A stretch of DNA of 49,372 nt from Escherichia phage Eco_BIFF. The stretch lies in the sequence record MH285980; one strand, written 5' to 3'. Under the pieces are notes generated by a model. That model saw only the letters and a list, made by a program, of their open reading frames with translations. It was not told the DNA's origin and made no database searches. The position numbers and the translations under genes were made by a program. Shown piece after piece: positions 26,358 to 46,739 of the stretch (position 1 is the stretch's first letter; each line of letters opens with the position of its first letter).

Positions 26358-26401
26358 GTAGCACTTTTTGCTAAAAACGTTTACTGTATGTCGTGTATTA
26401 T
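26358..26401 (+). promoter_or_regulatory. promoter cassette (-10 TATTAT); upstream of helicase
   Basis: GTAGCACTTTTTGCTAAAAA + 18 bp + TATTAT; 32 nt before helicase start. Confidence 0.5.
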
Positions 26402-26439
26402 AGCGTAAACGATACAACGATTCAAAGGATTAAATAGCT

Positions 26440-28458
26440 GTGACAATTAACATCAAGAAGCAAATCGCATTACTTGGCGAGGACTATATAAAACGCACTC
26501 AAGAACGATTTACTGTCGGTGAGGTCGTTCCTTATCCGTATCAGGTTGTTGCTTATGCCGAGATCGCAAAACGCCTGTCAAATTACGAGCATCCATTCTT
26601 TGTTAAAGCGTCAGTATCTGCGGGTAAAACAATCATATTCGCTATGGTGGCAAAGCAGTGTCAAAAAATGGGACTGAAAATGCTTGTGCTTGCGCGACAG
26701 GGTGAGATTGTCGATCAGGATAGTGAGGAGATTGACAACTTCGGGGTAACGAACTCCATATTCTCAGCATCGCTTGGAATCAAGTCCTGCTACTTCCCGA
26801 TCGTGGTTGGCTCAGAGGGTACTGTTGCAAATGGCCTCGACAATGAGTTAGCTGATTTCGTACCGCATGTAATTGGGATCGACGAATGTCACCAGGTGGA
26901 TTGGGAAGACCTTGCGCAAGCCATCGAAGGCAAGGAAACGATGGAGCAGATGAGGGGCGAGAAAGGGAAGGTTATCATGGACGGAGATATCCCCATGATT
27001 GGTAATGATGGAAAACCTTTACTTGGAACCAAGCGCAGTCAGTACACGATCGTAATCATGGAAATGATGCGGCGCTGTAAAAAGGTTCACGGTCACGATC
27101 TCAGAATATTTGGTATGACCGGATCTGAATTTCGGGGTGTAGTTCCTATTCTGGTAGAGAATCCTAAAGAGCTGGGATTCTGGCGTGAGCGAGTAACTGA
27201 TATCGACACAAACTATCTGATTGAGTTCGGATCTGTTGTGCCGACGATATTCGGTTCAACTGACGGCGTACACTACGATCTGGATAAGTTCAAGGCATCA
27301 AGCGAGGACGGCGTACAGGACTTTACAGAGAAAGATATGAAGGCAATGGAAGATGAGATCCTTCATGATAAATCTCTTACTCAGCGAATCATGCAAATGG
27401 TCGCCAAAAAGGCTGAAGAGCGTAACGCGGTTCTGATTACATGCGCCTGGGAACGCCACTGCAAAGAGGCGGCGGCAGCACTTCCTCCGGGAAGTACATA
27501 TGCAATTATTACTGGCGACACAGACAACAAAGCGCGCAAGAAGATTCTTGACGATGTGAGGGCTGGGAAAATTAAATACACCTTTCAGGTAATGGCGCTC
27601 ACTACTGGTGTTAACGTTCCAAATTGGGATTTCAGTGTCATACTCCGCAAGATAGGATCTCTCACTCTGTTGATTCAGCTTTTGGGTAGGGGTATGCGGC
27701 TGCTTAAATCATGGCAGGTTGCTGAAGGAATGGTTAAGCAAGACCATCTGGTATGGGATTTCGCTGGCACTATGGATGAGTTGGGCCAGCTTTATTTCGA
27801 TCCGATACTTGAGCAGGCGCAATTCCAGAAGCGTTTTGAAAACGGCAAAGACCCGAAAACATGCCCGAAATGCGGTTGCGTAAATAGCTTCTATGCTCGA
27901 CGATGCGTTAATGTCATTGATGGTGAACGTTGCGATTATTTCTGGACTTCTCAGATTTGCGAGGACCAGGTTGATGAACGTACCGGGAAAATCATTGTTA
28001 AAGGATGTGGTGCAGAGAATGACGTTGTTGCGCGAGTCTGTCGTTGTTGTGATGTTTCGCTTGTCGATCCTAACCTGAAGTTATCAGGTAAGGCGTACAC
28101 TAAGAATGACTGGTATGAAGTAAAGAATTTTGAGGTTACGCTAACCAAAAACCAGAAAGGCATAATATACAAATACACGCTGATTAACGACGATGGTGAT
28201 GAGTTCAAGGCGTATGAAAAATTCTTCCCCGAGTCTGACTCTAAGATTTGCGGTACGCTATGGAAAACTAAAGGTGTACTTCCTCATGTGTCAGATCCTA
28301 AAATGCGACGCTACTTTATCGGAATGAAGAACGCCATCAAGATTTTGCAATACTCACATCATATTGCTCACCCGGTGCGCGTAACTCATCGTCGCAACCA
28401 GAAGAAAGAAGATATTATCTCACGTAAAGACTTCGGTATGGAGGATATCCCGGAATGA
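26440..28458 (+). CDS. ATP-dependent DNA helicase (SF2) with C-terminal zinc ribbons
   Basis: Walker A SAGKT, DEAH-like GIDECHQ, CPKCG...C and CGAEN...CRCC ribbons; GTG start. Confidence 0.75.
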   Translation: MTINIKKQIALLGEDYIKRTQERFTVGEVVPYPYQVVAYAEIAKRLSNYEHPFFVKASVSAGKTIIFAMVAKQCQKMGLKMLVLARQGEIVDQDSEEIDNFGVTNSIFSASLGIKSCYFPIVVGSEGTVANGLDNELADFVPHVIGIDECHQVDWEDLAQAIEGKETMEQMRGEKGKVIMDGDIPMIGNDGKPLLGTKRSQYTIVIMEMMRRCKKVHGHDLRIFGMTGSEFRGVVPILVENPKELGFWRERVTDIDTNYLIEFGSVVPTIFGSTDGVHYDLDKFKASSEDGVQDFTEKDMKAMEDEILHDKSLTQRIMQMVAKKAEERNAVLITCAWERHCKEAAAALPPGSTYAIITGDTDNKARKKILDDVRAGKIKYTFQVMALTTGVNVPNWDFSVILRKIGSLTLLIQLLGRGMRLLKSWQVAEGMVKQDHLVWDFAGTMDELGQLYFDPILEQAQFQKRFENGKDPKTCPKCGCVNSFYARRCVNVIDGERCDYFWTSQICEDQVDERTGKIIVKGCGAENDVVARVCRCCDVSLVDPNLKLSGKAYTKNDWYEVKNFEVTLTKNQKGIIYKYTLINDDGDEFKAYEKFFPESDSKICGTLWKTKGVLPHVSDPKMRRYFIGMKNAIKILQYSHHIAHPVRVTHRRNQKKEDIISRKDFGMEDIPE

Positions 28459-28871
28459 TTACAGACAAAGGTGATTATTTAGAATTTTACGAGCGAGATC
28501 CAAGCGATACTCGAAAGGAGGATGCTCATCAAGTTGATTGCGTGTCATGGCTGAAATACAATTTCCCTCACCTTCTATTTTGGCACACTGTCAATGAAGG
28601 TGAAAAAACAATCACATCGGCACTAAGGGATGAACAAGCTGGATTACTTAAAGGCGTGTCAGACTTCGTTATCCTGATTGGTGTCAACTCACGATACCCG
28701 TTTGCAGCAATAGAACTCAAGCGGGTTAATAAGTCAGGCAAAGGAAAGGCGTCACCAGTCAGCGACAAGCAAAGGGAATTTCTCCGAAAGGTCCGGGAGC
28801 GCGGTGGATTCTCTGCCGTCGCATACGGATTCGGGCAATTCAAGATCGCAATTTACGAAATGATGAAATAG
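28455..28871 (+). CDS. VRR-NUC domain nuclease
   Basis: 138 aa with D...ELK PD-(D/E)XK-type motif (SDFVILIG...AIELK); overlaps helicase stop. Confidence 0.6.
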   Translation: MITDKGDYLEFYERDPSDTRKEDAHQVDCVSWLKYNFPHLLFWHTVNEGEKTITSALRDEQAGLLKGVSDFVILIGVNSRYPFAAIELKRVNKSGKGKASPVSDKQREFLRKVRERGGFSAVAYGFGQFKIAIYEMMK

Positions 28872-28911
28872 CACTTTTTGTTAAAACTGCCGGAATGGAA
28901 TCTGGCATAAT
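28868..28911 (+). promoter_or_regulatory. promoter cassette (-10 TGGCATAAT)
   Basis: ATAGCACTTTTTGTTAAAAC + 18 bp + CATAAT with TG extension; stop TAG of 28455..28871 lies inside the element. Confidence 0.5.
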
Positions 28912-28991
28912 ATTCTCATTGAAACGTTACGGATGTGTAAGAATGAACACTATATATTTTGTTTGCAATGTAATTTGCGAAGAGTCTAAAG

Positions 28992-29141
28992 ATGAACATT
29001 TTTTCAACTGGGGATAGTTACGAGGTTTTAGAGAAGAATGATAATTACGTAATGATTGATAATAATGGAGTTGAACGTGATGTTTGTATGGTTAATGGCG
29101 GCATTATAGTATCAAGCAATTCAAAATTCACTGAGTTATAA
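28992..29141 (+). CDS. small hypothetical protein (49 aa)
   Basis: Short AT-rich ORF between promoter cassette 28868..28911 and dam; weak RBS. Confidence 0.25.
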   Translation: MNIFSTGDSYEVLEKNDNYVMIDNNGVERDVCMVNGGIIVSSNSKFTEL

Positions 29142-29152
29142 GGATTTAAACA

Positions 29153-29866: not shown

Positions 29867-30114
29867 TGAACGAGAAAATGATTCCTGTTAAGTTAACTGA
29901 TCAAGGTTTATGGCTACTTTATCGAGCTACGTGCTGCGAAATTATGGAGCGAAACGGATTGACTCAGGATGTTATTGGTTGCGATCTGTGGGATTTCACT
30001 AGTTCTCTTGATATGTCTTTCGGTGAGATAAAAAATGAACATATCGAGAATTGGCCTTCAATTATCCAGAAAGACGTAGAGGAACTTAAAGCAGATACGA
30101 TCGTTCAGCACTAA
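29863..30114 (+). CDS. hypothetical protein
   Basis: 83-aa ORF coupled to dam stop; RBS AGGAAAG. Confidence 0.45.
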   Translation: MMNEKMIPVKLTDQGLWLLYRATCCEIMERNGLTQDVIGCDLWDFTSSLDMSFGEIKNEHIENWPSIIQKDVEELKADTIVQH

Positions 30115-30148
30115 TTGCTAAAAATACCCGGCGAAAGTCGGGTATAGT
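30105..30148 (+). promoter_or_regulatory. promoter cassette (-10 TATAGT)
   Basis: TCAGCACTAATTGCTAAAAA + 18 bp + TATAGT; stop TAA of 29863..30114 lies inside; 26 nt before ATG 30181. Confidence 0.5.
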
Positions 30149-30180
30149 TATTTCATTGAGACAAGATGAGGAATCAAAAG

Positions 30181-30390: not shown

Positions 30391-30872
30391 ACGAGAGGTT
30401 TGGGAGCACGCGAAGGAATGCGGAATATCAGACGATATAGCACTAATAGCAAAATATTTCGATATAAAGGATGTTAGCATTATATCAAACGGAAAGATTT
30501 CATTTATGGAAGATATGCCGAGAAAAATGCATAGAGTGCCAGCCACCCCGTCACTTGAGTTTTATCGTGAAGAAGGAAAGAGAATTGAGCGAGAACGAAA
30601 AAACGCAAAGAACAACAAGACTTCCAGGATTAAATATTAACTCAGATGGCTACCAGACAATATGGATCTGGAAAAGGCAGGTTAAGCAAATCCCTTTCTC
30701 TGACTGGCTACCACCTGACTTCGTTAACGTGCTGTGCACTATCGGGATCGAGAATGAGTTGCATATAGGTTATTACTCACCAGGTAGAAACAGCATGATG
30801 CTTGAGGTTGATGGAAAACTTGTTGAGTTTAAATCTTCAGACCTCGGATTCTGGTTAAAGGCTGTGGCATGA
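30368..30872 (+). pseudogene. hypothetical gene with apparent frame change at A6 run 30598..30603
   Basis: ORF 30368..30640 and ORF 30471..30872 overlap in different frames; removing one A from the A6 run fuses them into one ~167-aa reading frame. Confidence 0.3.
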
Positions 30873-30950: not shown

Positions 30951-32102
30951 ATGTCACAAGCTAAAATCACCACCGAGCAACTTATTGAAGAGCGCATGAG
31001 CGGCCTAACACTTCGCGAGATCGCGGAAAAATACGGCATGCACATTCGCACTGTTGAAGCGCGTCACGCCAAGCTGGCAAAAGAAGGTCATTTTCACGGT
31101 AACGAGCATGTTGCTAAAAACGTTCCCGAGGGATTCATGGTAAAAGGCACGTCGACGATGATTCGAGGTGATGGGACCGAGGTAGTGCGCTGGGTAAAGA
31201 CCGATCAGGACCGTGAGAAGATTGCGGCAATGATGGAAGCGGCTCGCATTGCATTCTGTGAAGACCTGCCGCGAGCAAATCCAACCAAGCTACTAACCTC
31301 GCAAGGGCTTACGACAGCTATGGGTAAGCTGGCACTCTATCCGGTATTCGATCTTCATATTGGCGCGCTTGCTCATAAGCATGAGTGCGGAGAGAACTAC
31401 TCTACCGATGTAGCGGAAAAAGTGCTGAGTGACTTCTTTAATTACGCGATCGATATTGCTCCGAACGCAGAGAAAGCTGTTCTGTTAATCGGCGGTGACT
31501 TCCTTCACTCTGACGGCCTTGATGCAGTTACCCCGGCAAGTGGTCACGTTCTTGATCAGGATTCACGATACGCAAAATTAGTGCATGTTGCGATTCGTTC
31601 GGTACGCCGAGCCATCGACAAAATGCTTATGAAACACAAAGAAGTCGAGGTCCAGGTTATCGAAGGGAACCACGATCAGTCTGGGATGATTTGGCTGAGA
31701 GCTGCAATGTCGGCATATTATGAAGACGAGCCGCGAGTATTCGTTGACGTTAGTCCTATGATTCTGCATAAGACTCGTTGGGGAAATACCTTGTTGGGAT
31801 ACACTCACGGTCACACTATGAAAAAGGCAGACACGCGACTTGCAGCAATGGCGGCAGATTTTCGATCAGACTTCGGCGAGAGCAAGTATGTGTATACTCA
31901 TAGTGGTCACTGGCATCACCAGACAATCACTGAGCACTCGCTTGGTATTGATGAGGTTCACGGTCAGTTAGGCGCGAAAGACGCATACGCAGCGCGCGGA
32001 GGGTGGCGCTCATATCGCCAGGCGGCTGTAATTGTTTACGATAAGCAGTTTGGGGAAATAGGTCGCTTCATCTATCGTCCAGAAATGACAGGATCGCACT
32101 AA
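30951..32102 (+). CDS. HTH-fused calcineurin-like metallophosphoesterase
   Basis: N-terminal HTH-like LTLREIAEKYGMHIRTVE; C-terminal motifs DLHIG, GGDFLH, GNHD, GHTH, GHWH. Confidence 0.6.
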   Translation: MSQAKITTEQLIEERMSGLTLREIAEKYGMHIRTVEARHAKLAKEGHFHGNEHVAKNVPEGFMVKGTSTMIRGDGTEVVRWVKTDQDREKIAAMMEAARIAFCEDLPRANPTKLLTSQGLTTAMGKLALYPVFDLHIGALAHKHECGENYSTDVAEKVLSDFFNYAIDIAPNAEKAVLLIGGDFLHSDGLDAVTPASGHVLDQDSRYAKLVHVAIRSVRRAIDKMLMKHKEVEVQVIEGNHDQSGMIWLRAAMSAYYEDEPRVFVDVSPMILHKTRWGNTLLGYTHGHTMKKADTRLAAMAADFRSDFGESKYVYTHSGHWHHQTITEHSLGIDEVHGQLGAKDAYAARGGWRSYRQAAVIVYDKQFGEIGRFIYRPEMTGSH

Positions 32103-32136
32103 TTGATAAAAACGCCCGAAGGGATTCGGGCATAGT
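32093..32136 (+). promoter_or_regulatory. promoter cassette (-10 CATAGT)
   Basis: ATCGCACTAATTGATAAAAA + 18 bp + CATAGT; stop TAA of 30951..32102 lies inside; 23 nt before ATG 32166. Confidence 0.45.
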
Positions 32137-32165
32137 AACAACATCGAAAGCAAAGAGGCTATATC

Positions 32166-33795: not shown

Positions 33796-33825
33796 TGCTT
33801 TCCTTCAGGTCGTTTCGATGAAACA

Positions 33826-33869
33826 AATATACCCGATACGAGATCGGGTGTTTTAACAAAAAGTGCTAT
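33826..33869 (-). promoter_or_regulatory. promoter cassette (-10 TATATT)
   Basis: Minus-strand ATAGCACTTTTTGTTAAAAC + 18 bp + TATATT; 24 nt before ATG 33795. Confidence 0.5.
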
Positions 33870-35958: not shown

Positions 35959-35987
35959 CACAATAAACTCCTTAGTTGACGGTGTGA

Positions 35988-36031
35988 ATGATACACCGCC
36001 AATGGTACACGCGTTTTTCAAAAAATGCTAT
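35988..36031 (-). promoter_or_regulatory. promoter cassette (-10 TATCAT); upstream of ATPase
   Basis: Minus-strand ATAGCATTTTTTGAAAAAC + 19 bp + TATCAT; element overlaps the last codons and stop of HNH 36018..36503. Confidence 0.45.
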
Positions 36032-36503
36032 TCGATCCGTGATTCTCATGAAAACCAAGATCAATGAGTATTGAATCTCTTAAATCTATAGCCTCACTAA
36101 CAGTGTCAACGCACCTTCCGTAAGTCTTACCCATAAATCTAACTCTTACCCTGTAAGAGCCTGATTTCATAGGGTATATGCAATTCATGCCAGATGTGTT
36201 ATTTTTGTTTAGACTTCTATTTGTTGTGTTCCCTTCTCTAGTTACAAGTCTTAAATTTTCAATTCTATCATCACCTGGTATATGGTTTATGTGGTCTATT
36301 TCCATACCTTCAGGTATCTGGCCGTTAAAAATAGTCCATACATATCTATGTCTATAAACCATCCTAAACCCATCATAAAACCTACAGTAACCCAGCCTAT
36401 CTAACTTTCCAGTCTCTCTCCCAACAAGGTTTTTAAATCTAGTGTTACTCTTATAATAAATAATTCCATCAACATATAAAAAATCATCTCTTATATTTAT
36501 CAT
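36018..36503 (-). CDS. HNH homing endonuclease (HNH + AP2-like domain)
   Basis: EIDHINHIPGDDRIENLRLVTREGN motif plus AP2-like GSYRVRVRFMGKTYG; AGA/ATA-rich codon usage; paralogue of 45598..46092. Confidence 0.7.
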   Translation of the reverse strand: MINIRDDFLYVDGIIYYKSNTRFKNLVGRETGKLDRLGYCRFYDGFRMVYRHRYVWTIFNGQIPEGMEIDHINHIPGDDRIENLRLVTREGNTTNRSLNKNNTSGMNCIYPMKSGSYRVRVRFMGKTYGRCVDTVSEAIDLRDSILIDLGFHENHGSNSIF

Positions 36504-36916: not shown

Positions 36917-36952
36917 TGCGTTAGCTCCTGATTGGTTATCTTGAATAAGGTC

Positions 36953-36996
36953 ACTTTATCAAATGACCTTACGGCAATATTAACAAATCGTGCTAT
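36953..36996 (-). promoter_or_regulatory. promoter cassette (-10 TGATAAAGT)
   Basis: Minus-strand ATAGCACGATTTGTTAATAT + 18 bp + TAAAGT inside hairpin AAGGTCA/TGACCTT; 30 nt before ATG 36916. Confidence 0.5.
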
Positions 36997-37437: not shown

Positions 37438-37470
37438 TTTTAATTCCTTTGTTTTGTTTGGTGTGTGAGT

Positions 37471-37515
37471 AATATACCTTACTCACTATTTATTGTCTTT
37501 AGCAATTAGTGCTAT
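37471..37515 (-). promoter_or_regulatory. promoter cassette (-10 TATATT, 19-bp spacer)
   Basis: Minus-strand ATAGCACTAATTGCTAAAGA; hairpin GTGAGTAA/TTACTCAC; 27 nt before ATG 37437. Confidence 0.45.
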
Positions 37516-38556: not shown

Positions 38557-38587
38557 GATTCTTTCCTCGTTTGCTGTTGATGTGTTT

Positions 38588-38631
38588 ACTATACCCCGAC
38601 TACCTTCGGGGCGTTTAGCAATTCGTGCTAT
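38588..38631 (-). promoter_or_regulatory. promoter cassette (-10 TATAGT)
   Basis: Minus-strand ATAGCACGAATTGCTAAACG + 18 bp + TATAGT after hairpin CCCCGA/TCGGGG; 25 nt before ATG 38556. Confidence 0.5.
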
Positions 38632-38966: not shown

Positions 38967-39004
38967 TTTCCTGCTACTGATGTGTATCTCGTTTCGATGA
39001 GGTA

Positions 39005-39048
39005 ATTATGCCAAATCGCACCGATCGAGTTTTAACAAAAAGTGCTAT
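39005..39048 (-). promoter_or_regulatory. promoter cassette (-10 TGGCATAAT)
   Basis: Minus-strand ATAGCACTTTTTGTTAAAAC + 18 bp + CATAAT; stop TAA of 39032..39736 lies inside; 32 nt before ATG 38966. Confidence 0.5.
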
Positions 39049-39736: not shown

Positions 39737-39770
39737 TGTGACTTCCTCTTCTGATTGGTTGATGGCCCGA

Positions 39771-39814
39771 ACTATACCCTGTCAACCTGGTCGAGTCGTT
39801 AGCAAAAATGCTAT
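39771..39814 (-). promoter_or_regulatory. promoter cassette (-10 TATAGT); upstream of C5-MTase-like gene
   Basis: Minus-strand ATAGCATTTTTGCTAAC (N4 variant); motif-to-hexamer distance conserved; 28 nt before ATG 39736. Confidence 0.45.
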
Positions 39815-39999
39815 TCCAATAATTGCTCATTATTCCATCAATACTGGAATAGGTGGAATAATTTTGATTGTTATTGATTGCGAATGATGAAACGTGATTA
39901 TTGCATGGTGTGCAACAGTTGGTTGATTTGTTGCTGAGATTGCAATGATTGTGAGAGGGAGGATTTAGTGTTGCCCTGTTCGCCTGGTAGTCATCTCCA

Positions 40000-40019
40000 T
40001 TTTTAGCAAAAAGTGCTAT
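40000..40019 (-). repeat. copy of the 20-bp element without a properly spaced -10
   Basis: Minus-strand ATAGCACTTTTTGCTAAAAA at the edge of the AT-rich divergent region; hexamer at the cassette position is GAACAG. Confidence 0.35.
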
Positions 40020-40023
40020 CGAT

Positions 40024-40420
40024 TACACTTTAACTTGTCACGACTGTAATATTTGTCTAGAATCGCACTTGTGACAAAAATACACACTGTGACGCCTCAC
40101 AATATACATATAGATATATGTATATATATAATATATATAGTGTTTTTTTTATTTATATATAGATAATTATATTGTAATAGTTGTGTATAGCTGTCTTACA
40201 TTGTCTAGCGTACTGTTGGCATATTTCTATCTGCATGTTTATATATACAGTACTTTTTTGAGAGCCATATATTTCTATAGTGGCTATAGACAGCTAGACA
40301 AATGTTACACGGCTTAAAATTGGCTCGCAGGCATTGACAGCTCTACATCGCGATGTCACAATGGCAATTGTTGACACATTATGACACCATTTACACACGA
40401 ATAGACAAAGAGGATATATT
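40024..40420. promoter_or_regulatory. AT-rich divergent control region with TGTGACA/TGTCACA/CTAGACA repeats
   Basis: Repeated TGTGACA, TGTCACA, TGTCTAGA words and (TA)n tracts between leftward and rightward early clusters; TTGACA boxes at 40334 and 40371. Confidence 0.5.
40334..40362 (+). promoter_or_regulatory. sigma70-type promoter for the first rightward early gene
   Basis: TTGACA, 17-bp spacer, CACAAT; second TTGACA at 40371..40376. Confidence 0.45.
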
Positions 40421-40936: not shown

Positions 40937-40939
40937 GAG

Positions 40940-41188
40940 GTGATGACCATGAGCAAGATTAAGTACGACGCTCTGAAAGGTGTATTAATGCAACTAAATC
41001 CAGGCGAAGCATTTCAGCTTAACCCCGAGACTTTTGGATTCAATGGTGATTATCGTACAACCTTCGAATTTGTCCGGTATGTAAAGAAGGAGTTTGGATT
41101 CGAAGTTATTCACGCAGGTCTTGTCAGTGGCATTCAGACGTTCATCTTTAAGCCAAATGAGATTCGCTGCTTCACTTTGATGAAATAG
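40940..41188 (+). CDS. hypothetical early protein
   Basis: 82-aa ORF; stop TAG lies inside element 41185..41204. Confidence 0.45.
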   Translation: MMTMSKIKYDALKGVLMQLNPGEAFQLNPETFGFNGDYRTTFEFVRYVKKEFGFEVIHAGLVSGIQTFIFKPNEIRCFTLMK

Positions 41189-41228
41189 CACTTTTTGTTA
41201 AAACCGGATCGGGATAACCTGGTATAGT
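41185..41228 (+). promoter_or_regulatory. promoter cassette (-10 TGGTATAGT)
   Basis: ATAGCACTTTTTGTTAAAAC + 18 bp + TATAGT; 25 nt before ATG 41260. Confidence 0.55.
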
Positions 41229-41259
41229 AACCCCATCGACAACGAACGAGGATACAAAC

Positions 41260-41748
41260 ATGAAAATCAAATTACTTTGCACTGGCGGTTACAAAGGCTT
41301 TACCCGCGACCTTGAAGCGGACCCTATCGTGGTTGATGCGGTTAAGTGCGATTCCAGCACTGGAGGCTACCGCGTTAAGGTTGACGATCTTATTAAAGCT
41401 GGCGTGTACGATCTTGACTACGGACTTTCTGTTAGCCCTGTATTTGGTCCGGCTGACTTCAACGAGAAAGACGGAACGATGTTCTTTTTTGAATGGGAAG
41501 TTCAAGCGAACGTCAAGCCGCGCAAGGTTCGACTTCTCAGTAATGGCGGCTACCCTATGCGTCCAGGTTATGAGAATCGCACGTTCCCGGTTATCGTTGA
41601 CTTTGAAGAAATCACCGAGCACTTAGCTTATATCAACGGTGAACAGCTTAATGCTGTTGGATTCGTGGGAGGTATGAATCAAGAGGCGCTATGCTTCTTC
41701 CATTGTAAAGCCGATCCGTTCGATATTGAGTGTGAGTTAGTCTACTAA
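41260..41748 (+). CDS. hypothetical early protein
   Basis: 162-aa ORF 25 nt behind cassette -10; stop TAA inside next element. Confidence 0.45.
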   Translation: MKIKLLCTGGYKGFTRDLEADPIVVDAVKCDSSTGGYRVKVDDLIKAGVYDLDYGLSVSPVFGPADFNEKDGTMFFFEWEVQANVKPRKVRLLSNGGYPMRPGYENRTFPVIVDFEEITEHLAYINGEQLNAVGFVGGMNQEALCFFHCKADPFDIECELVY

Positions 41749-41789
41749 GCACGAATTGTTAAAAGGGGATTTGTCCTGAATGGTATAAT
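41746..41789 (+). promoter_or_regulatory. promoter cassette (-10 TGGTATAAT)
   Basis: TAAGCACGAATTGTTAAAAG + 18 bp + TATAAT inside hairpin GGGGATT/AATCCCC; 24 nt before ATG 41820. Confidence 0.55.
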
Positions 41790-41819
41790 CCCCACATCAA
41801 CCACTAAAAGGAAATCATC

Positions 41820-42326: not shown

Positions 42327-42475
42327 TGACGGCGTGGATTTTAATTATCTTGATGAGTACCGGGCCGGATCACGTATACATGGAGAGCCAACAATCATGC
42401 AATAAGGCACGGGAAGTTATCGCAGAGAATAAGCCGTTCGGGTACGAAGTTAAAACAATGTGCGTTAAACGATAG
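42326..42475 (+). CDS. small hydrophobic protein (49 aa)
   Basis: ATG overlaps upstream stop (TAATG); N-terminal hydrophobic segment; stop TAG inside element 42472..42491. Confidence 0.3.
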   Translation: MTAWILIILMSTGPDHVYMESQQSCNKAREVIAENKPFGYEVKTMCVKR

Positions 42476-42515
42476 CACGAATTGCTAAACCTTCCGCAAG
42501 GCCATTTGATATAGT
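42472..42515 (+). promoter_or_regulatory. promoter cassette (-10 TGATATAGT)
   Basis: ATAGCACGAATTGCTAAACC + 18 bp + TATAGT in loop of hairpin AAGGCCA/TGGCCTT. Confidence 0.55.
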
Positions 42516-42578
42516 GGCCTTATTGAAGAAAAGCAACCAATCAGGCTGGATGCCGCATAATTTAATTAGGTTTTATCT

Positions 42579-42812: not shown

Positions 42813-42961
42813 TGGCTACACGACTCACTCAGTGGCAGATTTACGACAAGGCATCACTCCTACGCGAATCACTTCGCGGATTGACACCGAACGACAGAAT
42901 GGAGATTATCGGGCACGCATTGCACGAACTCACGTCTCAGGACGTAATCTATCATTCATGA
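42812..42961 (+). CDS. small hypothetical protein (49 aa)
   Basis: ATG overlaps upstream stop (TAATG); RBS AAGGGAA. Confidence 0.3.
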   Translation: MATRLTQWQIYDKASLLRESLRGLTPNDRMEIIGHALHELTSQDVIYHS

Positions 42962-43001
42962 GGCAATAAATTCTGGAACGTGACATTCGAGGTAAAGAAA
43001 G

Positions 43002-43289
43002 ATGAGCAAAACTCATAAGTTAAAAATCGCCCCGGTACATTTCATTGGTGTAATGAACGGAACCAAAACGGCAGAGTTCCGCGTCAATGACCGAAACTTC
43101 CAGGTTGGTGATATCCTTGAGCTACGAGAGTTCGATCGCGATGAGTTTACCGGTTGGGAGGTTCACGCCAGGGTATCCGATGTTACAGACGTGACGCCAC
43201 ACATCAATCGCGGGTATGACGATCAAGGATGCGACTTCACGCAATACGTGATGTTATCAATCAAGCCTTACAGGAAGATTAGACCATGA
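43002..43289 (+). CDS. ASCH-like (DUF3850-type) PUA-fold protein
   Basis: KLKIAPVHFIGVMNGTKTAEFRVNDRNFQVGDILELRE matches the DUF3850/ASCH pattern recalled from memory. Confidence 0.5.
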   Translation: MSKTHKLKIAPVHFIGVMNGTKTAEFRVNDRNFQVGDILELREFDRDEFTGWEVHARVSDVTDVTPHINRGYDDQGCDFTQYVMLSIKPYRKIRP

Positions 43290-43924: not shown

Positions 43925-43977
43925 TTTTAACGGGGAATCTGCTCTGAGCGGTTCCCCTTTCTTTTGGAGAAAGAACT

Positions 43978-44088
43978 ATGCCAGACTTTTCTAACTGGAA
44001 TAACGAGCCGCCATCATTTCATGAGTTGCTATTTTGCCTACTGATCCTGACATTATCTCTTAAGGGTGTTTTATGGCTACTATCATGA
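43978..44088 (+). CDS. small hydrophobic peptide (36 aa)
   Basis: RBS GGAGAAAG after terminator-like hairpin 43931..43962; hydrophobic LLFCLLILTLSL; overlaps next gene start. Confidence 0.25.
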   Translation: MPDFSNWNNEPPSFHELLFCLLILTLSLKGVLWLLS

Positions 44089-44288
44089 CAGCAGAAGATG
44101 CAGCACGCGACGCAGTGGAAGGAATGCGCCCAAATACCTCCAGAATCTCCCACTACTACAAATTTGATGTGTCGGCAGTGCAATTGGTCCACGAAATTTT
44201 AAGGCTCCCACAAGTCGATTCAGCGCGCGTGGTGACGTGCTTAAAAAATTATTTTTGCATCACTGTTAAAACGAATAGCACGAATTGA
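44073..44288 (+). CDS. hypothetical early protein
   Basis: 71-aa ORF with RBS AAGGGTG; stop TGA inside element 44275..44294. Confidence 0.4.
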   Translation: MATIMTAEDAARDAVEGMRPNTSRISHYYKFDVSAVQLVHEILRLPQVDSARVVTCLKNYFCITVKTNSTN

Positions 44289-44318
44289 TAAAACCTATCA
44301 AGGGGAATGCGCTATGAT
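44275..44318 (+). promoter_or_regulatory. promoter cassette (-10 TATGAT)
   Basis: ATAGCACGAATTGATAAAAC + 18 bp + TATGAT in hairpin GGGGAAT/ATTCCCC; 24 nt before ATG 44349. Confidence 0.5.
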
Positions 44319-44348
44319 TCCCCTACACCAACAAACGAGGAAGCACTC

Positions 44349-44795
44349 ATGAAACACTTAATTTGCATTGAAACGCCTAACGATGAATACACTCTGCACG
44401 GCATTGGAATGTTCAAAGGTCACTACATGACAGCGAGCATTTACGATGCTCGTCGCGGCGATGGCGATCTGATGATTACGTCAAGAGAAGTAAATCCGTA
44501 CATTATGCAGAATCTTGGCGATAACGAATATATGGCCTACGGCTGCAACGCGGTGTACAAGCACATTAAGATCCGCAAGCATGTTGTGCGTGCATTCAAG
44601 AAAATTGCAATGAAATACTGGAAGATGAGCAAGAAGGATGCCGGACGCTGGGCGCGTAACGTTGCAGATTCATACTTCTACCGTAACGGTGAGTCCTGCT
44701 ACTTCCTGGTCGATGAAATTATGGAAAACTACGGCGGCGACTTCAGTCAGTGTAGCTTTGACGCTTGGGCTGACTATGAGATCAGTTGCTGGTAA
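44349..44795 (+). CDS. hypothetical early protein
   Basis: Start set at ATG 44349 (RBS GAGGAAG); track start 44307 lies inside the promoter cassette. Confidence 0.45.
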   Translation: MKHLICIETPNDEYTLHGIGMFKGHYMTASIYDARRGDGDLMITSREVNPYIMQNLGDNEYMAYGCNAVYKHIKIRKHVVRAFKKIAMKYWKMSKKDAGRWARNVADSYFYRNGESCYFLVDEIMENYGGDFSQCSFDAWADYEISCW

Positions 44796-44838
44796 TAGCA
44801 CTAATTGCTAAAACTTGCTCAAGGGTATTTGATAGAAT
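44795..44838 (+). promoter_or_regulatory. promoter cassette (-10 TGATAGAAT)
   Basis: ATAGCACTAATTGCTAAAAC + 18 bp + TAGAAT in hairpin AAGGGTA/TGCCCTT; 33 nt before ATG 44878. Confidence 0.55.
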
Positions 44839-44877
44839 GCCCTTCGTTGAGTTAAGCAACCAATCAGAGGAATCACT

Positions 44878-45081
44878 ATGAAAACTATTACCGGAATGAG
44901 CAACGAAACGAGAACGCAGATCGTTAGCATGCTAATCGGCATGGCTGACGATATTCAGAATAGCCATGTCGTTATTGATTCATGCAATCAGACTCGTGAG
45001 AGTAAATTTGAATCATCCGGCTACAAAATTGTTGAAGAAGAATTAACCATCAAAATCATTCGCGTACAGGAGAAAGCATAA
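44878..45081 (+). CDS. hypothetical early protein
   Basis: 67-aa ORF with RBS AGAGGAA behind cassette 44795..44838. Confidence 0.45.
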   Translation: MKTITGMSNETRTQIVSMLIGMADDIQNSHVVIDSCNQTRESKFESSGYKIVEEELTIKIIRVQEKA

Positions 45082-45611
45082 TGGATAAAATCACAATTTG
45101 GGGTCAGAAAATCAACCTGTTTCTCGGCACGCGCCGCGTAGCAATCTTTGACTTTGACGGGACGCTGAGTGAAGGATCTGGTCGACTTCACCTGTTACCG
45201 ACAAAAGATTTGCACTTGACTGAAAGCTGGTCTGAGTTTAACCGTGCGGCAATATTTGACAACCCTATCCAAAGCACGATCGACGTGATGAACTCTATGT
45301 TTGCCGCTGGATATCATGTAATAATTTTAACCGGGCGAAGTGATGAGGTGCGTTACGCATCTGAGTTATGGCTTAAGCATCACGGCGCTCGATATGATTA
45401 CTTAGTCATGCGACCGCACACCGACAACCGTAAAGACACGGTAATGAAAGAAGAGGCAGTGCGCGCGATCGGCATTGATAACATTCTGGCGGCTTGGGAT
45501 GACTCAGTGAATATAATAAAAAAATTCAGAGAGCTAGGAATAACCACGTATCAGGTTTGTGAATATGCCTGTAATAGTCGAGAGGATTTAAAAAGTCATG
45601 GTGTCGATTGA
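45081..45611 (+). CDS. HAD-superfamily phosphatase
   Basis: HAD motif I FDFDGTL and downstream motifs (ILTGRSD, W-DD); RBS GGAGAAAG. Confidence 0.6.
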   Translation: MDKITIWGQKINLFLGTRRVAIFDFDGTLSEGSGRLHLLPTKDLHLTESWSEFNRAAIFDNPIQSTIDVMNSMFAAGYHVIILTGRSDEVRYASELWLKHHGARYDYLVMRPHTDNRKDTVMKEEAVRAIGIDNILAAWDDSVNIIKKFRELGITTYQVCEYACNSREDLKSHGVD

Positions 45612-46092
45612 TAACAAATCAAGGGTAAGAGAGTTATTTACTTATTCTGACGGCGTTCTGTATTGGAAAGCTAAATCATCTAAATACAGTAGAGCTAAAA
45701 TAGGAGGAGCGGCAGGAAGCAAGGATAAAGACGGATACATAATAATCAGAGTAAGAAGCGAAACTAGAGGCGCTCACAGGCTTGTATGGATATACCATAA
45801 TGGTAAGATACCGAATGGAATGGAGGTAGACCATATGGATGGAGACATAAAAAACAATAGAATAGAAAACCTAAGATTGGTAACGAGAACCATAAATAAC
45901 AGGAATCAAAAAAAGAGATTTGATAACACAACCGGAGTATCCGGTGTAACTTTCATGAAAGATAGAGGAAAGTATAGGGCGCAAGTTAGAAATAAGAAAC
46001 TCGGGCAATTCGACACAATAGAAGAGGCCGCTCAAGCCGTAAATTATGAGCGTGATAGATTAGGTTTATTCACAAAAAGACACGGAGTATAA
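45598..46092 (+). CDS. HNH homing endonuclease (HNH + AP2-like domain)
   Basis: EVDHMDGDIKNNRIENLRLVTR motif plus AP2-like GKYRAQVRNKKLGQF; AGA/ATA-rich codons; paralogue of 36018..36503. Confidence 0.7.
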   Translation: MVSIDNKSRVRELFTYSDGVLYWKAKSSKYSRAKIGGAAGSKDKDGYIIIRVRSETRGAHRLVWIYHNGKIPNGMEVDHMDGDIKNNRIENLRLVTRTINNRNQKKRFDNTTGVSGVTFMKDRGKYRAQVRNKKLGQFDTIEEAAQAVNYERDRLGLFTKRHGV

Positions 46093-46094
46093 AC

Positions 46095-46667
46095 ATGAAA
46101 ACAGCTATCATTTTAAACGGAGCACCTGGCGCAGGAAAAGACACTATCGGATGCATCCTGGCTGACACTTACGATCATGTAGCGCTACGCAGCTTCAAAG
46201 CGCCAATGTTTGAGATTGCCAGAGCAATCCTGGGTGAGGCTAATTTCGAGTATTTCATGTTCTTGTATGAGGACCGTCGCTATAAAGAAGAGCCAGCATC
46301 AATCCTGAACGGTAAAAGCCCGCGCCAGTTTATGATCTGGATTAGCGAGGAAGTCATCAAGCCGCAGTTCGGAAATCGCTTCTTCGGTATGCGAGCGGAA
46401 AGCAAGGTGAAAGAGTCGCACTCCCTTTCGGTATTTACTGATGGTGGATTCAAAGACGAAATCTTGCAGATGATTGAAGGTGATATCCAAGTCAAGCTAT
46501 GTCGAATACATCGCAACGGTTGCAACTTCGATAATGACAGTCGAGACTATATCTACCTGGACGATATGATCGGGGTTAACGGCTATCAGGAGTGTGACTT
46601 CTTCTCTGTCGAAGGTCATCCAGAAATTACCGCTCATCACATAGCCGCCACGTTCATCAATAAATAG
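46095..46667 (+). CDS. P-loop nucleotide kinase (dNMP-kinase-like)
   Basis: Walker A GAPGAGKDT at N-terminus, 190 aa; RBS GGAG; stop TAG inside element 46664..46683. Confidence 0.55.
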   Translation: MKTAIILNGAPGAGKDTIGCILADTYDHVALRSFKAPMFEIARAILGEANFEYFMFLYEDRRYKEEPASILNGKSPRQFMIWISEEVIKPQFGNRFFGMRAESKVKESHSLSVFTDGGFKDEILQMIEGDIQVKLCRIHRNGCNFDNDSRDYIYLDDMIGVNGYQECDFFSVEGHPEITAHHIAATFINK

Positions 46668-46707
46668 CACGAATTGCTAAAACGTCGGTGGGGTGATTTG
46701 ATATAGT
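46664..46707 (+). promoter_or_regulatory. promoter cassette (-10 TGATATAGT)
   Basis: ATAGCACGAATTGCTAAAAC + 18 bp + TATAGT; 26 nt before ATG 46740. Confidence 0.55.
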
Positions 46708-46739
46708 TACCTCATCGACAACGAAGAGAGAAAATCGAA

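What the first reader, a model, noticed from the sequence alone, without database searches (positions are those of the whole stretch)
26378..46720. GC-rich inverted repeats bracket the -10 of most cassettes, and a conserved initial transcribed region follows
In most cassettes the 18-bp spacer and the bases after the -10 form a 6-8 bp stem with the hexamer in the loop or 3' arm, e.g. AAGGCCA-TTTGATATAG-TGGCCTT at 42497..42520 and GGGGATT...AATCCCC at 41766..41796. Some pair only with G-U wobbles (46684..46720), which argues for RNA-level function in read-through transcripts, such as a partial terminator or processing site. Downstream, several cassettes share CATCGA(C/A)AACGA or CATCAACCAATCAG, and the RBS context AACCAATCAGGAG recurs at 9594, 22135, 36928, 39745, 42536 and 44858.
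Basis: seen in the sequence. Interest (0 to 1): 0.5.

Follow-up and report, generated by a model that had tools for sequence, protein, structure and literature searches.

The report
RNA hairpins nested inside phage promoters
In this T1-like phage almost every short gap between early genes is one compact promoter unit that also hides a small RNA hairpin around its -10 box. The hairpin is kept by evolution on the transcribed strand, much like the promoter/stem-loop cassettes known from T4-like phages.

Summary
The window is a T1-like phage (Drexlerviridae, Tunavirus). About 24 intergenic cassettes start with the published 21-nt repeat aaATAGCACnnnTTGnTAAAA. Across 360 unique cassettes from relatives, 65% have a strong stem, against 5% of shuffles or of chimeras built from unrelated cassettes.

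They are conserved by compensatory change and are strand-specific. Internal G.U outnumbers A.C by 174 to 38. About half of the 4-nt loops are GNRA. Stem sites vary three times less than loops. This supports RNA function in read-through transcripts.

Corrections:
- TTGNTA lies 22 bp, not 18, from the -10, so it is not an ordinary -35.
- The promoters are extended -10 type, with a conserved CA start 7 nt downstream.
- Only about a third of the hairpins have a T-rich tail (the -10 itself). Stems that enclose the -10 end at -1 and are followed by an A/C-rich, unstructured leader, so most are not canonical terminators.

Best reading: these are gene-boundary RNA hairpins packed into the only sequence-free positions of a portable promoter cassette. 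They are a Drexlerviridae counterpart of T4-type PeSL elements. What they actually do (attenuation or 3'-end protection) is inferred, not shown.

The parts
26359..26411 (+). Helicase cassette. Repeat 26359-26375. AT-rich stem CGTTTAC/GTAAACG at 26378-26384 and 26405-26411, with the -10 TATTAT (26396-26401) in a 20-nt loop.
   Evidence: The repeat starts 14 nt from the divergent regulator gene. The stem is absent in the Hanrivervirus and Webervirus orthologues.
28869..28918 (+). Cassette upstream of the Dam region. Repeat 28869-28885. Spacer hairpin TGCCGGA-atggaa-TCTGGCA at 28888-28907, with 1 G.U. -10 CATAAT at 28906-28911. Predicted start at 28918.
   Evidence: Orthologues keep a hairpin at the same place with different arms: GCTGGA/TCTGGC, GGCGCGA/TTGCGCC, GCCCGG/GCCGGG.
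30106..30155 (+). Cassette. Repeat 30106-30122. Hairpin ATACCCGGC-GAAA-GTCGGGTAT at 30124-30145, with a GNRA loop and 1 G.U. -10 TATAGT at 30143-30148. T-rich tail AGTTATTTCA. Predicted start at 30155.
   Evidence: flagged terminator-like; sense -14.8 kcal/mol, z -4.5; antisense -9.6.
30438..30487 (+). Cassette with a variant repeat (TAGCACTAATAGCAAAA, 30438-30454). AT-rich stem GATATAA/TTATATC spanning 30461-30486. -10-like TAGCAT at 30475-30480.
   Evidence: This is the weakest of the 15 stems counted.
32094..32143 (+). Cassette after the SbcD-like exonuclease gene. Repeat 32094-32110. Hairpin GCCCGAA-GGGA-TTCGGGC at 32114-32131. -10 CATAGT at 32131-32136. Start CA at 32142-32143, then CATCGAAAG.
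   Evidence: The T1 orthologue is annotated as a rho-independent terminator. G-C changes to G.U or A-U in relatives.
33819..33868 (-). Cassette. Repeat 33852-33868. Hairpin ACCCGAT-ctcgt-ATCGGGT at 33831-33849. -10 TATATT at 33826-33831. Tail ATATTTGTTT. Predicted start at 33819 (CATCGAAAC).
   Evidence: (terminator-like on the sense strand).
35976..36030 (-). Cassette. Repeat 36014-36030 (TAGCATTTTTTGAAAAA). 10-bp stem TTGGCGGTGT/ACACCGTCAA at 35976-36002 that overlaps the -10 TATCAT (35988-35993): its first T ends the 5' arm, the next four bases (ATCA) lie in the loop atcattc, and its last T is also in that loop.
   Evidence: T-A changes to T.G and G.U changes to A-U in relatives.
36946..36995 (-). 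Cassette. Repeat 36979-36995. 11-bp stem TAAGGTCATTT/AAGTGACCTTA at 36946-36971. Extended -10 TGATAAAGT. The leader contains AACCAATCAGGAG.
   Evidence: (sense -14.8 kcal/mol, z -5.4; antisense -8.0). The Webervirus orthologue has GTAACGTCA/TGGCGTTAC, a compensatory G-C to C-G change.
37465..37514 (-). Cassette. Repeat 37498-37514. Stem GTGAGTAA-ggtata-TTACTCAC at 37465-37486. -10 TATATT at 37471-37476, with a 23-bp spacing.
   Evidence: Two A-U to G.U changes and one double change (T-A to G-C) in relatives.
38581..38630 (-). Cassette. Repeat 38614-38630. Spacer hairpin CCCCGA-aggtag-TCGGGG at 38594-38611. -10 TATAGT at 38588-38593. Predicted start at 38581 (CATCAACAG).
   Evidence: The loop differs in relatives (aggtga, gtgaga) while the stem is kept.
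38998..39047 (-). Cassette with a weak stem only. Repeat 39031-39047. -10 CATAAT at 39005-39010. Predicted start at 38998 (CATCGAAACGAG).
   Evidence: In CLB_P3 the same leader is joined to the hairpin of the Dam cassette, making a chimeric cassette.
41186..41235 (+). Cassette. Repeat 41186-41202. Only a 5-bp stem in this phage. -10 TATAGT at 41223-41228. Predicted start at 41235 (CATCGACAACGA).
   Evidence: Orthologues have GGGGTT/AACCCC (T1), GTGGTT/AACCAC (XJA18, compensatory), GGGGTAA/TTACCCC (Webervirus) and ATGCGC/GCGCAT (Hanrivervirus), all enclosing the -10.
41747..41796 (+). Cassette. Repeat 41747-41763. Stem GGGGATT/AATCCCC at 41765-41771 and 41787-41793. -10 TATAAT at 41784-41789, in the loop and 3' arm. 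Predicted start at 41796.
   Evidence: (sense -14.0 kcal/mol, z -2.3; antisense -11.9).
42473..42522 (+). Cassette. Repeat 42473-42489. Stem AAGGCCATT/AGTGGCCTT at 42498-42506 and 42513-42521. Extended -10 TGATATAGT, hexamer at 42510-42515. The stem ends at -1. The leader has AACCAATCAG at 42535.
   Evidence: (sense -16.8 kcal/mol, z -4.7). It belongs to the 36-sequence family used for the formal covariation test.
44276..44325 (+). Cassette. Repeat 44276-44292. Stem AGGGGAAT/ATTCCCCT spanning 44301-44324. -10 TATGAT at 44313-44318.
44796..44845 (+). Cassette. Repeat 44796-44812. Stem AAGGGTATT/AATGCCCTT spanning 44821-44844, with G.U pairs. -10 TAGAAT at 44833-44838. The leader has AACCAATCAG at 44858.
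   Evidence: (sense -15.3 kcal/mol, z -4.0; antisense -7.4). U.G changes to C-G in relatives.
46665..46719 (+). Cassette. Repeat 46665-46681. 15-bp stem GTCGGTGGGGTGATT/AGTTACCTCATCGAC at 46684-46698 and 46705-46719, with 4 G.U. -10 TATAGT at 46702-46707. The 3' arm runs to +6 of CATCGACAACGA.
   Evidence: (sense -22.4 kcal/mol, z -5.7; antisense -8.0, z -0.9). G.U changes to A-U and U.G changes to C-G in relatives.
25854..25908 (-). Just outside the stated range: primase cassette. Repeat 25892-25908. 8-bp stem ACGCGTAG/CTACGCGT with a -10-like TAACAT in the loop, followed by TTTTTTATTT. This is a canonical terminator wrapped round a -10.
   Evidence: It is conserved with different arms in Webervirus (AAACGCCT/AGGCGTTT) and Tempevirinae (GCCTGGCA/TGTCAGGC). 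It is annotated as a terminator in T1.
39764..39817 (-). Degenerate cassette upstream of the Dcm-like gene. Repeat one base short (ATAGCATTTTTGCTAA), then TATAGT and CCATCAACCAATCAG. No clear stem.

Best explanation
The inverted repeats are RNA hairpins selected on the sense strand. Each one sits inside a compact promoter cassette that fills the whole gap between two genes. The cassette runs, in order:
- the stop codon of the upstream gene, which is often the TAG of the repeat itself;
- the 17-21 nt repeat, at -52 to -32;
- about 17 free bases;
- an extended -10 (G at -14, then TATAAT-like);
- a 5-nt discriminator;
- a conserved CA start;
- a leader about 25 nt long, A/C-rich and unstructured;
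- the Shine-Dalgarno sequence and the start codon.

The hairpin arms occupy exactly the positions that carry no promoter information. Either both arms lie in the free spacer and end at -13 to -10, or one arm lies in the spacer and the other in the discriminator, ending at -1.

The 5' arm lies upstream of the cassette's own start. The hairpin can therefore fold only in RNA made by polymerases arriving from upstream. It marks the 3' boundary of the upstream gene.
- About a third of the hairpins, where the stem is followed by the T-rich -10 or by a T run, look like leaky intrinsic terminators or attenuators.
- The rest have no U tract. They most likely act as a barrier to 3' exonucleases, or as an insulator that keeps upstream RNA from pairing with the unstructured leader.

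Shown: the hairpins, their covariation, their strand specificity, the promoter anatomy, and the tendency of homology breakpoints to fall in cassettes.

Inferred: that the cassettes fire as promoters at the CA, that read-through occurs, and what the hairpin does to the RNA.
For: Identity. The window is about 91% identical to Tunavirus phages.

Cassette anatomy, from 360 unique copies.
- The -10 is T.69 A.89 T.76 A.62 A.55 T.86.
- G at -14 is 86% and TG is 47%.
- C(-1) is 72% and A(+1) is 82%, exactly 7 nt after the hexamer.

Hairpins exceed chance. 64-65% of cassettes have a strong stem, against 5.7% of shuffles and 5.2% of chimeras.

Formal covariation was tested on 36 cassettes chosen by loop motif only.
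- 90.1% of cells pair, against 75.9 +/- 1.4 in shuffles.
- 49 cells have changes on both sides, against 19.1 +/- 3.0 (0 of 500 shuffles reach this).
- The covariation score is 0.477, against 0.22 in shuffles and at most 0.19 when partners are slid.
- RNAalifold finds the same helix independently.

Strand specificity.
- G.U to A.C is 174:38.
- Sense is more stable than antisense in 122 of 175 regions, p = 1e-8.
- 19 of about 38 tetraloops are GNRA.
- All 11 pair-preserving single changes among Tunavirus orthologues go through G.U on the sense strand.

Purifying selection. Stem sites are variable at 8%, loops at 29% and flanks at 23%.

Compaction. In 67 of 209 cassettes the upstream ORF stops at the TAG of the repeat, and in 58 more within 12 nt upstream.

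Stem 3' ends are bimodal, at -13 to -10 and at -1.

Leader. It is 49% A and 13% G. MFE is -2.2 kcal/mol, against -5.5 for random genomic 40-mers.

Precedent. [quoted passage not shown]
Against: - No transcript ends were available for any T1-like phage. The literature searches found none.
- Most hairpins lack a U tract. Stems enclosing the -10 have 1.2-1.3 T in the 8-nt tail, and only 2 window hairpins pass a terminator scan. Termination therefore cannot be the general function.
- The exonuclease-barrier and insulator roles are inference from analogy only.
- G.T pairs are also the least bad mismatch in single-stranded DNA, and GNA-type loops stabilise DNA hairpins too. A strand-specific DNA role is made unlikely but is not formally excluded.
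- Repeat copies without an upstream co-directional gene lack hairpins (MFE -6.0 against -12.3 kcal/mol). Most of these copies also lack a -10, so that contrast is confounded.
Confidence: 0.55

Rival explanations
1. All the hairpins are intrinsic (rho-independent) terminators. Each cassette ends one transcription unit and starts the next, and the hairpin has no other role.
For: - GC-rich stems with GNRA or UNCG loops look like terminator hairpins.
- Some copies are canonical: 25854-25884 plus a T run; 30124-30145; 33831-33849.
- IMG/VR copies exist such as ACCCGC-tacg-GCGGGT followed by TTTGTATTAT.
- Two T1 orthologues are annotated as terminators.
- One PeSL stem-loop terminated in vivo.
Against: - 154 of 267 strong stems enclose the -10 and are followed by CATCGAAAC-type tails with 1.2-1.3 T in 8 nt. 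Only 2-3% of them have 5 or more T.
- Only 2 of about 19 window hairpins pass a terminator tail test on the sense strand.
Confidence: 0.15
2. The repeats act as duplex or cruciform DNA. They could be operators for a regulator overlapping the -10. Or they could tune promoter melting, through a GC-rich spacer and discriminator or through supercoil-driven extrusion.
For: - They always touch the -10.
- The helicase cassette stem ACGTTTAC...GTAAACG(T) lies beside a Cro/C2-like regulator gene and could be a true operator.
Against: - Arm sequences are specific to each cassette. Chimeras of unrelated cassettes pair in only 5% of cases, so there is no common protein site.
- 174 G.T against 38 A.C means that the opposite-strand hairpin of a cruciform would be mismatched.
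- Stems of 6-9 bp with loops of 4-20 nt are poor cruciforms. This rests on established knowledge, not on a test here.
- Pair-preserving changes go through G.U only on the sense strand.
Confidence: 0.07
3. The hairpins exist for recombination. Single-stranded DNA hairpins at cassette borders would promote or target the exchange of gene modules, as proposed for PeSL mini-circles, and have no role in gene expression.
For: - 18 of 54 distinct homology breakpoints between this phage and six Tunavirus genomes fall inside cassettes, which make up 6% of the region (p = 1e-9).
- CLB_P3 carries a chimeric cassette.
- In RB49 one crossover mapped within the stem-loop.
- The phage encodes RecE/Erf-like and SbcD-like functions.
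Against: - The conserved repeat, -10 and leader already supply the homology needed for exchange. The hairpin arms are the least conserved part between cassettes.
- The strand bias follows the direction of transcription on both strands of the genome. RNA explains this more simply than any single replication or recombination intermediate.
- Breakpoints may also pile up in cassettes simply because intergenic DNA diverges faster.
Confidence: 0.05
4. The hairpins are endonuclease processing sites of the RNase III type, as between the early genes of T7.
For: - They are intercistronic hairpins in an early region transcribed by host polymerase.
- The 15-bp stem at 46684-46719 is long enough to bind RNase III.
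Against: - Typical stems are 6-10 bp, well below the roughly two helical turns of known RNase III substrates. That length is from established knowledge.
- Loops and stems share no common sequence.
Confidence: 0.05

Closest known systems
PeSL (promoter-early stem-loop) cassettes of T4-like phages RB49/phi1, PST and nt-1 (Arbiol et al. 2010, PMC2839356; Comeau et al. 2014, PMC4122927)
   Same: [quoted passage not shown] - The units are concentrated among small genes of unknown function.
- They coincide with junctions of insertions, deletions and replacements.
   Different: - There is no sequence homology between the two kinds of cassette.
- PeSLs have a near-consensus -35/N17/-10. Here there is no -35 at 17 bp, but an extended -10 and a strongly conserved dyad-containing repeat 22 bp upstream.
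- Most stems here end at -1 and have no T-rich tail.
- Terminator activity and mini-circles were shown for PeSLs and are untested here.
The 21-nt direct repeat aaATAGCACnnnTTGnTAAAA of phage TLS, also seen in T1, Rtp and Rogue1 (PMC11447400, 2024)
   Same: It is the same repeat, with the same orientation relative to transcription and the same distance of about 76 nt to start codons.
   Different: - That paper treats the repeat alone. It leaves its function open (stoperator, enhancer site or UP element) and reports only three sigma70-like promoters.
- It does not describe the -10 at a fixed 22 bp, the conserved start, or the hairpins.
Intrinsic terminators and intercistronic stabiliser hairpins (REP-type 3' barriers) of E. 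coli
   Same: - Short GC-rich stems, often with GNRA or UUCG loops, lie just after a stop codon.
- A subset is followed by a T-rich tract.
   Different: - The hairpins are nested inside a promoter.
- Where a T-rich tract is present, it is the -10 hexamer itself.
- The majority have an A/C-rich tail.
RNase III sites between the early genes of T7
   Same: They are hairpins between early genes that would leave each message with a 3' stem.
   Different: The stems are far shorter (6-10 bp), lack the internal-loop architecture, and overlap promoters.
Lambda nut sites (boxA plus the boxB hairpin)
   Same: A conserved linear element is followed within a few bases by a short GC-rich hairpin, often with a GNRA-like loop, on the nascent RNA.
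   Different: - There are about 20 copies per genome.
- Hairpin sequence, loop and position vary freely.
- Many loops contain the -10.
- No N-like protein is known.
This is a resemblance only.

Membership tests
PeSL-type composite promoter/stem-loop cassette | [quoted passage not shown] | tested here: met
   The upstream ORF stops at the TAG of the repeat in 67 of 209 cassettes, and within 12 nt upstream in 58 more. The distance from the predicted start to the start codon has a median of 25 nt.
PeSL-type composite promoter/stem-loop cassette | A near-consensus sigma70 promoter (-35, about 17 bp, -10) | tested here: not met
   The -10 is clear, but TTGNTA lies 22 bp upstream. A consensus scan with 16-18 bp spacers does not call the cassettes.
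PeSL-type composite promoter/stem-loop cassette | A stem-loop lies between the upstream element and the -10, or overlaps the -10 | tested here: met
   Of 267 strong stems, 250 are of this kind: 96 end at or run into the -10 and 154 enclose it. Their 3' ends peak at -13 to -10 and at -1.
PeSL-type composite promoter/stem-loop cassette | Cassettes are junctions of gene insertion, deletion or replacement | tested here: met
   18 of 54 distinct homology breakpoints fall inside cassettes, against 6% expected (p = 1e-9). CLB_P3 carries a chimeric cassette. One caveat: intergenic divergence could inflate this figure.
PeSL-type composite promoter/stem-loop cassette | The stem-loop terminates transcription in vivo, and mini-circles form between cassettes | not testable with these tools
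   This needs reporter assays and inverse PCR.
Intrinsic (rho-independent) terminator | A GC-rich hairpin | tested here: met
Intrinsic (rho-independent) terminator | A U-rich tract directly after the stem | tested here: not met
   Five or more T in the 8-nt tail occur in 25-38% of stems that end at the -10 and in 2-3% of stems that enclose it. Two window hairpins pass the scan on the sense strand.
Extended -10 sigma70 promoter | A TATAAT-like hexamer with A at -11 and T at -7, preceded by TGn | tested here: met
   A at -11 is 89%, T at -7 is 86%, G at -14 is 86% and TG is 47%.
Extended -10 sigma70 promoter | Transcription starts about 7 nt downstream of the hexamer | not testable with these tools
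   The sequence is consistent with this: C(-1) 72% and A(+1) 82% at that distance. No start-site mapping data were found.
T1/TLS 21-nt direct repeat | The sequence aaATAGCACnnnTTGnTAAAA, in the direction of transcription, about 76 nt before start codons | tested here: met
RNase III processing hairpin (T7 early type) | About 20 bp of double-stranded RNA | tested here: not met
   Stems are 6-11 bp, except for 46684-46719, which has 15 bp.
Protein operator overlapping the -10 | The same palindrome sequence at all controlled promoters | tested here: not met
   The arms differ between cassettes and pair only with their own partner: 65% against 5.2% in chimeras.
Any Rfam RNA family | A match at the family's gathering score | tested here: not met
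   There were 0 matches in the whole window.

The most novel reading that the evidence does not exclude
Termination and initiation are mechanistically coupled inside one 80-nt unit.
- The hairpin made by an incoming polymerase stalls or releases it exactly on the next promoter's -10/+1. The stem 3' ends pile up at -13 to -10 and at -1.
- The enzyme is then handed over to the internal promoter.
- That promoter has no -35. It depends on an unknown factor bound to the repeat, whose dyad TAGCA-N5-TG(C/T)TA is centred at -42, the position of a class II activator.
- Alternatively the repeat itself works as RNA. Its only variable paired position is C or U in 98% of copies, giving G-C or G.U, so repeat plus hairpin would form a nut/put-like signal on the transcript.
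Probability: 0.1. Interest if true: 0.75.

Novelty: new variant of a known kind. Interest (0 to 1): 0.45.

Why it matters
T1-like phages (Drexlerviridae) are common, are used in therapy collections, and are notorious laboratory contaminants. Yet their transcription map is unknown. The latest re-annotation of TLS found only three sigma70-like promoters and could not assign a function to the repeat.

This analysis turns the repeat into a testable model.
- There are about 20 extended -10 promoters per genome, each with a predicted start site.
- Each promoter carries an evolutionarily maintained RNA hairpin that marks the end of the preceding gene.

It also shows that 'a hairpin inside the promoter' is not a peculiarity of T4-like phages. 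It looks like a recurrent solution for packing self-contained, exchangeable gene modules. The cassettes are compact natural insulator parts that could be reused in phage engineering.

Tried and rejected
- A pattern scan of IMG/VR with the repeat gave fragmentary loci mixed with chance hits. Only loci with 2 or more cassettes were used.
- Automatic detection of the downstream ORF, for orthology, missed several starts. It was replaced by flank-based blastn.
- The first attempt to pick the loop family used a wrong offset and found nothing. This was fixed.
- The consensus sigma70 scan does not recognise the cassettes, and its overall counts are no better than shuffles. It is useful only as a negative result and for the promoter cluster at 40035-40420.
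- Rfam gave nothing.
- Searches for start-site or 3'-end data on any T1-like phage found none.
- A 2026 preprint on promoter-terminator coupling could not be opened.
- Pfam on the candidate regulators gave only a sub-threshold Cro-like match. The two other HTH candidates gave nothing. No protein can therefore be assigned to the repeat.
- Sigma54 was considered, because TGGCAC-N5-TTGC resembles TAGCAC-N3-TTGC. It was rejected because the spacing is 2 bp short and GG is replaced by AG.
- TTGNTA as a -35 was rejected on the 22-bp spacing.
- Cruciform shortening of the spacer was rejected, because it would leave only 2-6 bp.
- An antisense-terminator reading was considered, since the reverse complement of the repeat gives a T run after spacer hairpins. 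It was rejected as the main role because of the G.U and GNRA strand bias.
- The contrast between cassettes with and without an upstream gene is confounded by loss of the -10 and by non-independent orthologues.

Full report
WHAT THE WINDOW IS. The 20-kb region is about 91% identical to Escherichia phage LeonhardEuler and to other members of Tunavirus (Drexlerviridae, the T1-like phages). The gene order matches T1 and LeonhardEuler as annotated. The layout is:
- late genes on the + strand up to about 20 kb;
- a recombination and replication block;
- two divergent blocks of small early genes on either side of an AT-rich gap at about 40.0-40.4 kb.

THE CASSETTES. A motif search and a regular-expression scan find about 24 copies of (A)ATAGCAC[G/T][A/T][A/T]TTG[C/T]TAAAA. 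This is the 21-nt direct repeat published for phage TLS in 2024. [quoted passage not shown] The authors left its function open (stoperator, enhancer site or UP element). They also noted that conventional tools found only three sigma70-like promoters (PMC11447400). The curated T1 record annotates none of the cassettes as a promoter, and only two of their hairpins as terminators.

ANATOMY FROM 360 UNIQUE COPIES. I collected cassettes from ten further genomes and from IMG/VR contigs. The genomes were six Tunavirus, two Tempevirinae/Hanrivervirus and two Webervirus-like. Anchored on the repeat, the consensus is aAATAGCACtttTTGcTAAAAc-(about 15 free nt)-tGgTATAaT-(5 nt)-CAtcgAAAc.
- The hexamer is a textbook -10: T .69, A .89, T .76, A .62, A .55, T .86.
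- G at -14 is present in 86% of copies and TG in 47%.
- Exactly 7 nt after the hexamer come C (72%) and A (82%), as expected for a start site.
- The distance from TTGNTA to the hexamer is 22 bp, not 17-18.
- TTGNTA is therefore not a normal -35, and a consensus scan does not call these sites.
- They look like extended -10 promoters with a conserved upstream element spanning -49 to -33.
- The leader from +1 to the Shine-Dalgarno sequence is 49% A, 25% C and 13% G.
- The start codon follows at a median of 25 nt.
- Positions +1 to +40 are almost unstructured, at -2.2 kcal/mol against -5.5 for random genomic 40-mers.

CHECK OF THE OBSERVATION. In 26378-46720, fifteen of 19 cassettes have a stem of 6-15 bp. 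Five lie wholly in the spacer and end at the -10.

The folding tool gives z-scores of -4.7, -2.3 and -5.7 for these three.

Family-wide figures are as follows.
- 64% of 175 regions, and 65% of 360 regions, have a strong stem. The controls give 5.7% for shuffles and 5.2% for chimeras. A chimera joins the 5' half of one cassette to the 3' half of an unrelated one, which keeps all position-specific composition.
- Mean MFE is -11.6 kcal/mol, against -6.2 for shuffles and -7.0 for random genomic windows.

The motif claims are only partly right.
- CATCGA(C/A)AACGA is exact at two window sites.
- CATCAACCAATCAG is exact at one.
- AACCAATCAGGAG is exact at two.
- Even so, the initial transcribed region is clearly conserved across the family: CATCGAAACG and CATCGACAAC occur in 65 of 295 cassettes.

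ARE THE STEMS SELECTED, AND ON WHICH MOLECULE? Five lines of evidence agree.
1. Covariation. I chose 36 cassettes only by their loop motif (TTTGWTAnAGT) and aligned them without gaps. On this alignment the 9-bp helix pairs in 90.1% of cells, against 75.9 +/- 1.4 in shuffles. It has 49 cells with changes on both sides, against 19.1 +/- 3.0 (0 of 500 shuffles). The covariation score is 0.477, against 0.22 in shuffles and at most 0.19 in slid controls. Six of the nine pairs change on both sides. RNAalifold predicts the same helix.
2. Orthologous cassettes in different genera keep a hairpin at the same place with unrelated arms. Upstream of Dam these are GCCGGA/TCTGGC, GGCGCGA/TTGCGCC and GCCCGG/GCCGGG. 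In the 41186 group they are GGGGTT/AACCCC, GTGGTT/AACCAC, GGGGTAA/TTACCCC and ATGCGC/GCGCAT.
3. Among Tunavirus orthologues, stem positions vary at 8% of sites, loops at 29% and flanks at 23%. Thirteen of 20 variant pair states keep pairing. All 11 pair-preserving single changes pass through G.U on the sense strand.
4. Internal G.U outnumbers A.C by 103:31, by 60:12 among unique stems, and by 174:38 in the larger set. Shuffles give 42% G.U. Sense folds beat antisense folds in 122 of 175 regions (p = 1e-8).
5. Of about 38 four-base loops in spacer hairpins, 19 are GNRA and 3 are UNCG, where about 3% GNRA would be expected.

Together these results exclude three readings: chance, a common protein operator, and a symmetric DNA structure. 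They point to the sense-strand RNA. The 5' arm lies upstream of the cassette's own start, so that RNA must come from upstream.

WHY THERE? The upstream ORF ends at the TAG of the repeat in 67 of 209 cassettes, and within 12 nt upstream in 58 more. The cassette is therefore the whole intergenic region. The arms sit exactly where the promoter carries no information, namely the free spacer and the 5-nt discriminator. Stem 3' ends are sharply bimodal, at -13 to -10 and at -1. The simplest reading is that a hairpin needed at the gene boundary has been squeezed into the free positions of the promoter. The unusual 22-bp spacing leaves just enough room for a 6-7 bp stem with a tetraloop.

WHAT DOES THE HAIRPIN DO? 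This step is inferred.
- Stems that end at the -10 (96 of 267) are followed by the T-rich hexamer. They have 3.5-3.6 T in 8 nt, and 25-38% have 5 or more T.
- Some are canonical terminators: 30124-30145, 33831-33849, and the primase cassette 25854-25884 with its T run. These are plausible leaky terminators in which the -10 doubles as the U tract.
- Stems that enclose the -10 (154 of 267) are followed by CATCGAAAC-type tails with 1.2-1.3 T in 8 nt. They cannot be canonical terminators.
- For these I favour a barrier to 3' exonucleases, or an insulating role next to the unstructured and probably nuclease-accessible leader.
- RNase III is unlikely, because stems are mostly 6-10 bp.
- No transcript-end data for any T1-like phage were found.

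COMPARISON WITH WHAT IS KNOWN. The closest system is the PeSL of T4-like phages. [quoted passage not shown] One stem-loop terminated transcription in a lacZ assay. The cassettes mediate modular shuffling (PMC2839356 and PMC4122927).

The T1-like cassettes share the architecture, and also the link with mosaicism. Eighteen of 54 distinct homology breakpoints between this phage and six relatives fall inside cassettes, which make up 6% of the region (p = 1e-9). CLB_P3 carries a cassette that joins the hairpin of one cassette to the leader of another.

They differ in three ways.
- They have no -35 at 17 bp, and instead a strongly conserved upstream repeat.
- They have no sequence homology to PeSLs.
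- Most of their stems lack a T-rich tail.

I therefore file them as a new variant of a known kind. The repeat itself is already published. I found no description of the hairpins, of the fixed -10 or of the start site in the papers I could read. Subscription papers such as the 2004 T1 genome paper could not be checked.

VERDICT. Its RNA-level interpretation is supported. The 'partial terminator' label fits about a third of the copies. The promoter geometry needs correcting. Interest is moderate. The finding gives a concrete and testable transcription map for a poorly understood phage family, and a second, independent instance of hairpins nested in promoters. The concept already exists, and the function remains unproven.

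Noticed in passing
window 5811-5827, 9575-9591, 24818-24834: Three copies of the repeat are inverted relative to the local genes, and each lies next to a canonical terminator. These are the + strand terminator at 5833-5863 before the major capsid gene, the + strand terminator at 9513-9528, and the - strand terminator at about 24873-24897 before the tail-fibre gene. Each repeat ends only 6-12 nt before the next ribosome-binding site. On their own strand they carry a -10-like hexamer at the usual distance (TATACA, TAGGAT). They could be antisense promoters or protein roadblocks controlling late genes.
   Followed up: partly
all cassettes, e.g. window 42473-42489: The repeat contains a dyad, TAGCA-N5-TG(C/T)TA, centred at -42 from the predicted start. 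That is the position of class II activators such as CRP and FNR. The only variable dyad position is C in 202 copies, T in 151, A in 6 and G in 1 of 360. As RNA it would therefore always be G-C or G.U, and RNAalifold also draws this 5-bp hairpin. It is unresolved whether the repeat is a DNA site for a dimeric factor or an RNA element.
   Followed up: partly
window 40035-40420: Canonical sigma70 promoter-like sites (TTGTCA-17-TAGAAT, TATACA-18-TATAAT, TTGACA-17-CACAAT with TG) cluster only in the very AT-rich divergent gap between the two early gene blocks. This stretch contains runs of (TA)n and no ORF. It is likely the immediate-early promoter region, and possibly an origin.
   Followed up: no
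window 40002-40018 (-) and 48495-48511 (+): Two repeat copies have no -10 and no hairpin at the usual distance. One heads the leftward early block. The other sits 9 nt before the small-terminase start codon, with the ribosome-binding site inside the usual spacer. The repeat therefore also occurs outside promoters.
   Followed up: no
window 39764-39817 (-): A degenerate cassette upstream of the Dcm-like methylase gene has a repeat one base short (ATAGCATTTTTGCTAA), followed by TATAGT and CCATCAACCAATCAG. The motif scan missed it.
   Followed up: partly
L126 (CLB_P3) 1199(+) compared with window 28869 and 39047: In phage CLB_P3 one cassette has the spacer hairpin of the Dam cassette joined to the leader of the 39047 cassette. 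The junction lies at the -10 or discriminator. This is a direct trace of recombination between two cassettes.
   Followed up: partly
window 26359-26411 and 25893-26417 (-): The helicase cassette starts 14 nt from the start of a divergent Cro/C2-like regulator gene (Pfam P22_Cro, sub-threshold, E = 7e-5). It carries an AT-rich 7-9 bp inverted repeat 20 nt apart (ACGTTTAC...GTAAACG), which is absent from the orthologous cassettes of other genera. Unlike the other stems, this one could be a true operator.
   Followed up: no
window 36018-36503 (-): An HNH endonuclease gene (Pfam HNH_3, E = 2e-19) lies between two cassettes here. It is absent at this position in LeonhardEuler. This is consistent with cassettes flanking mobile or optional genes.
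   Followed up: no
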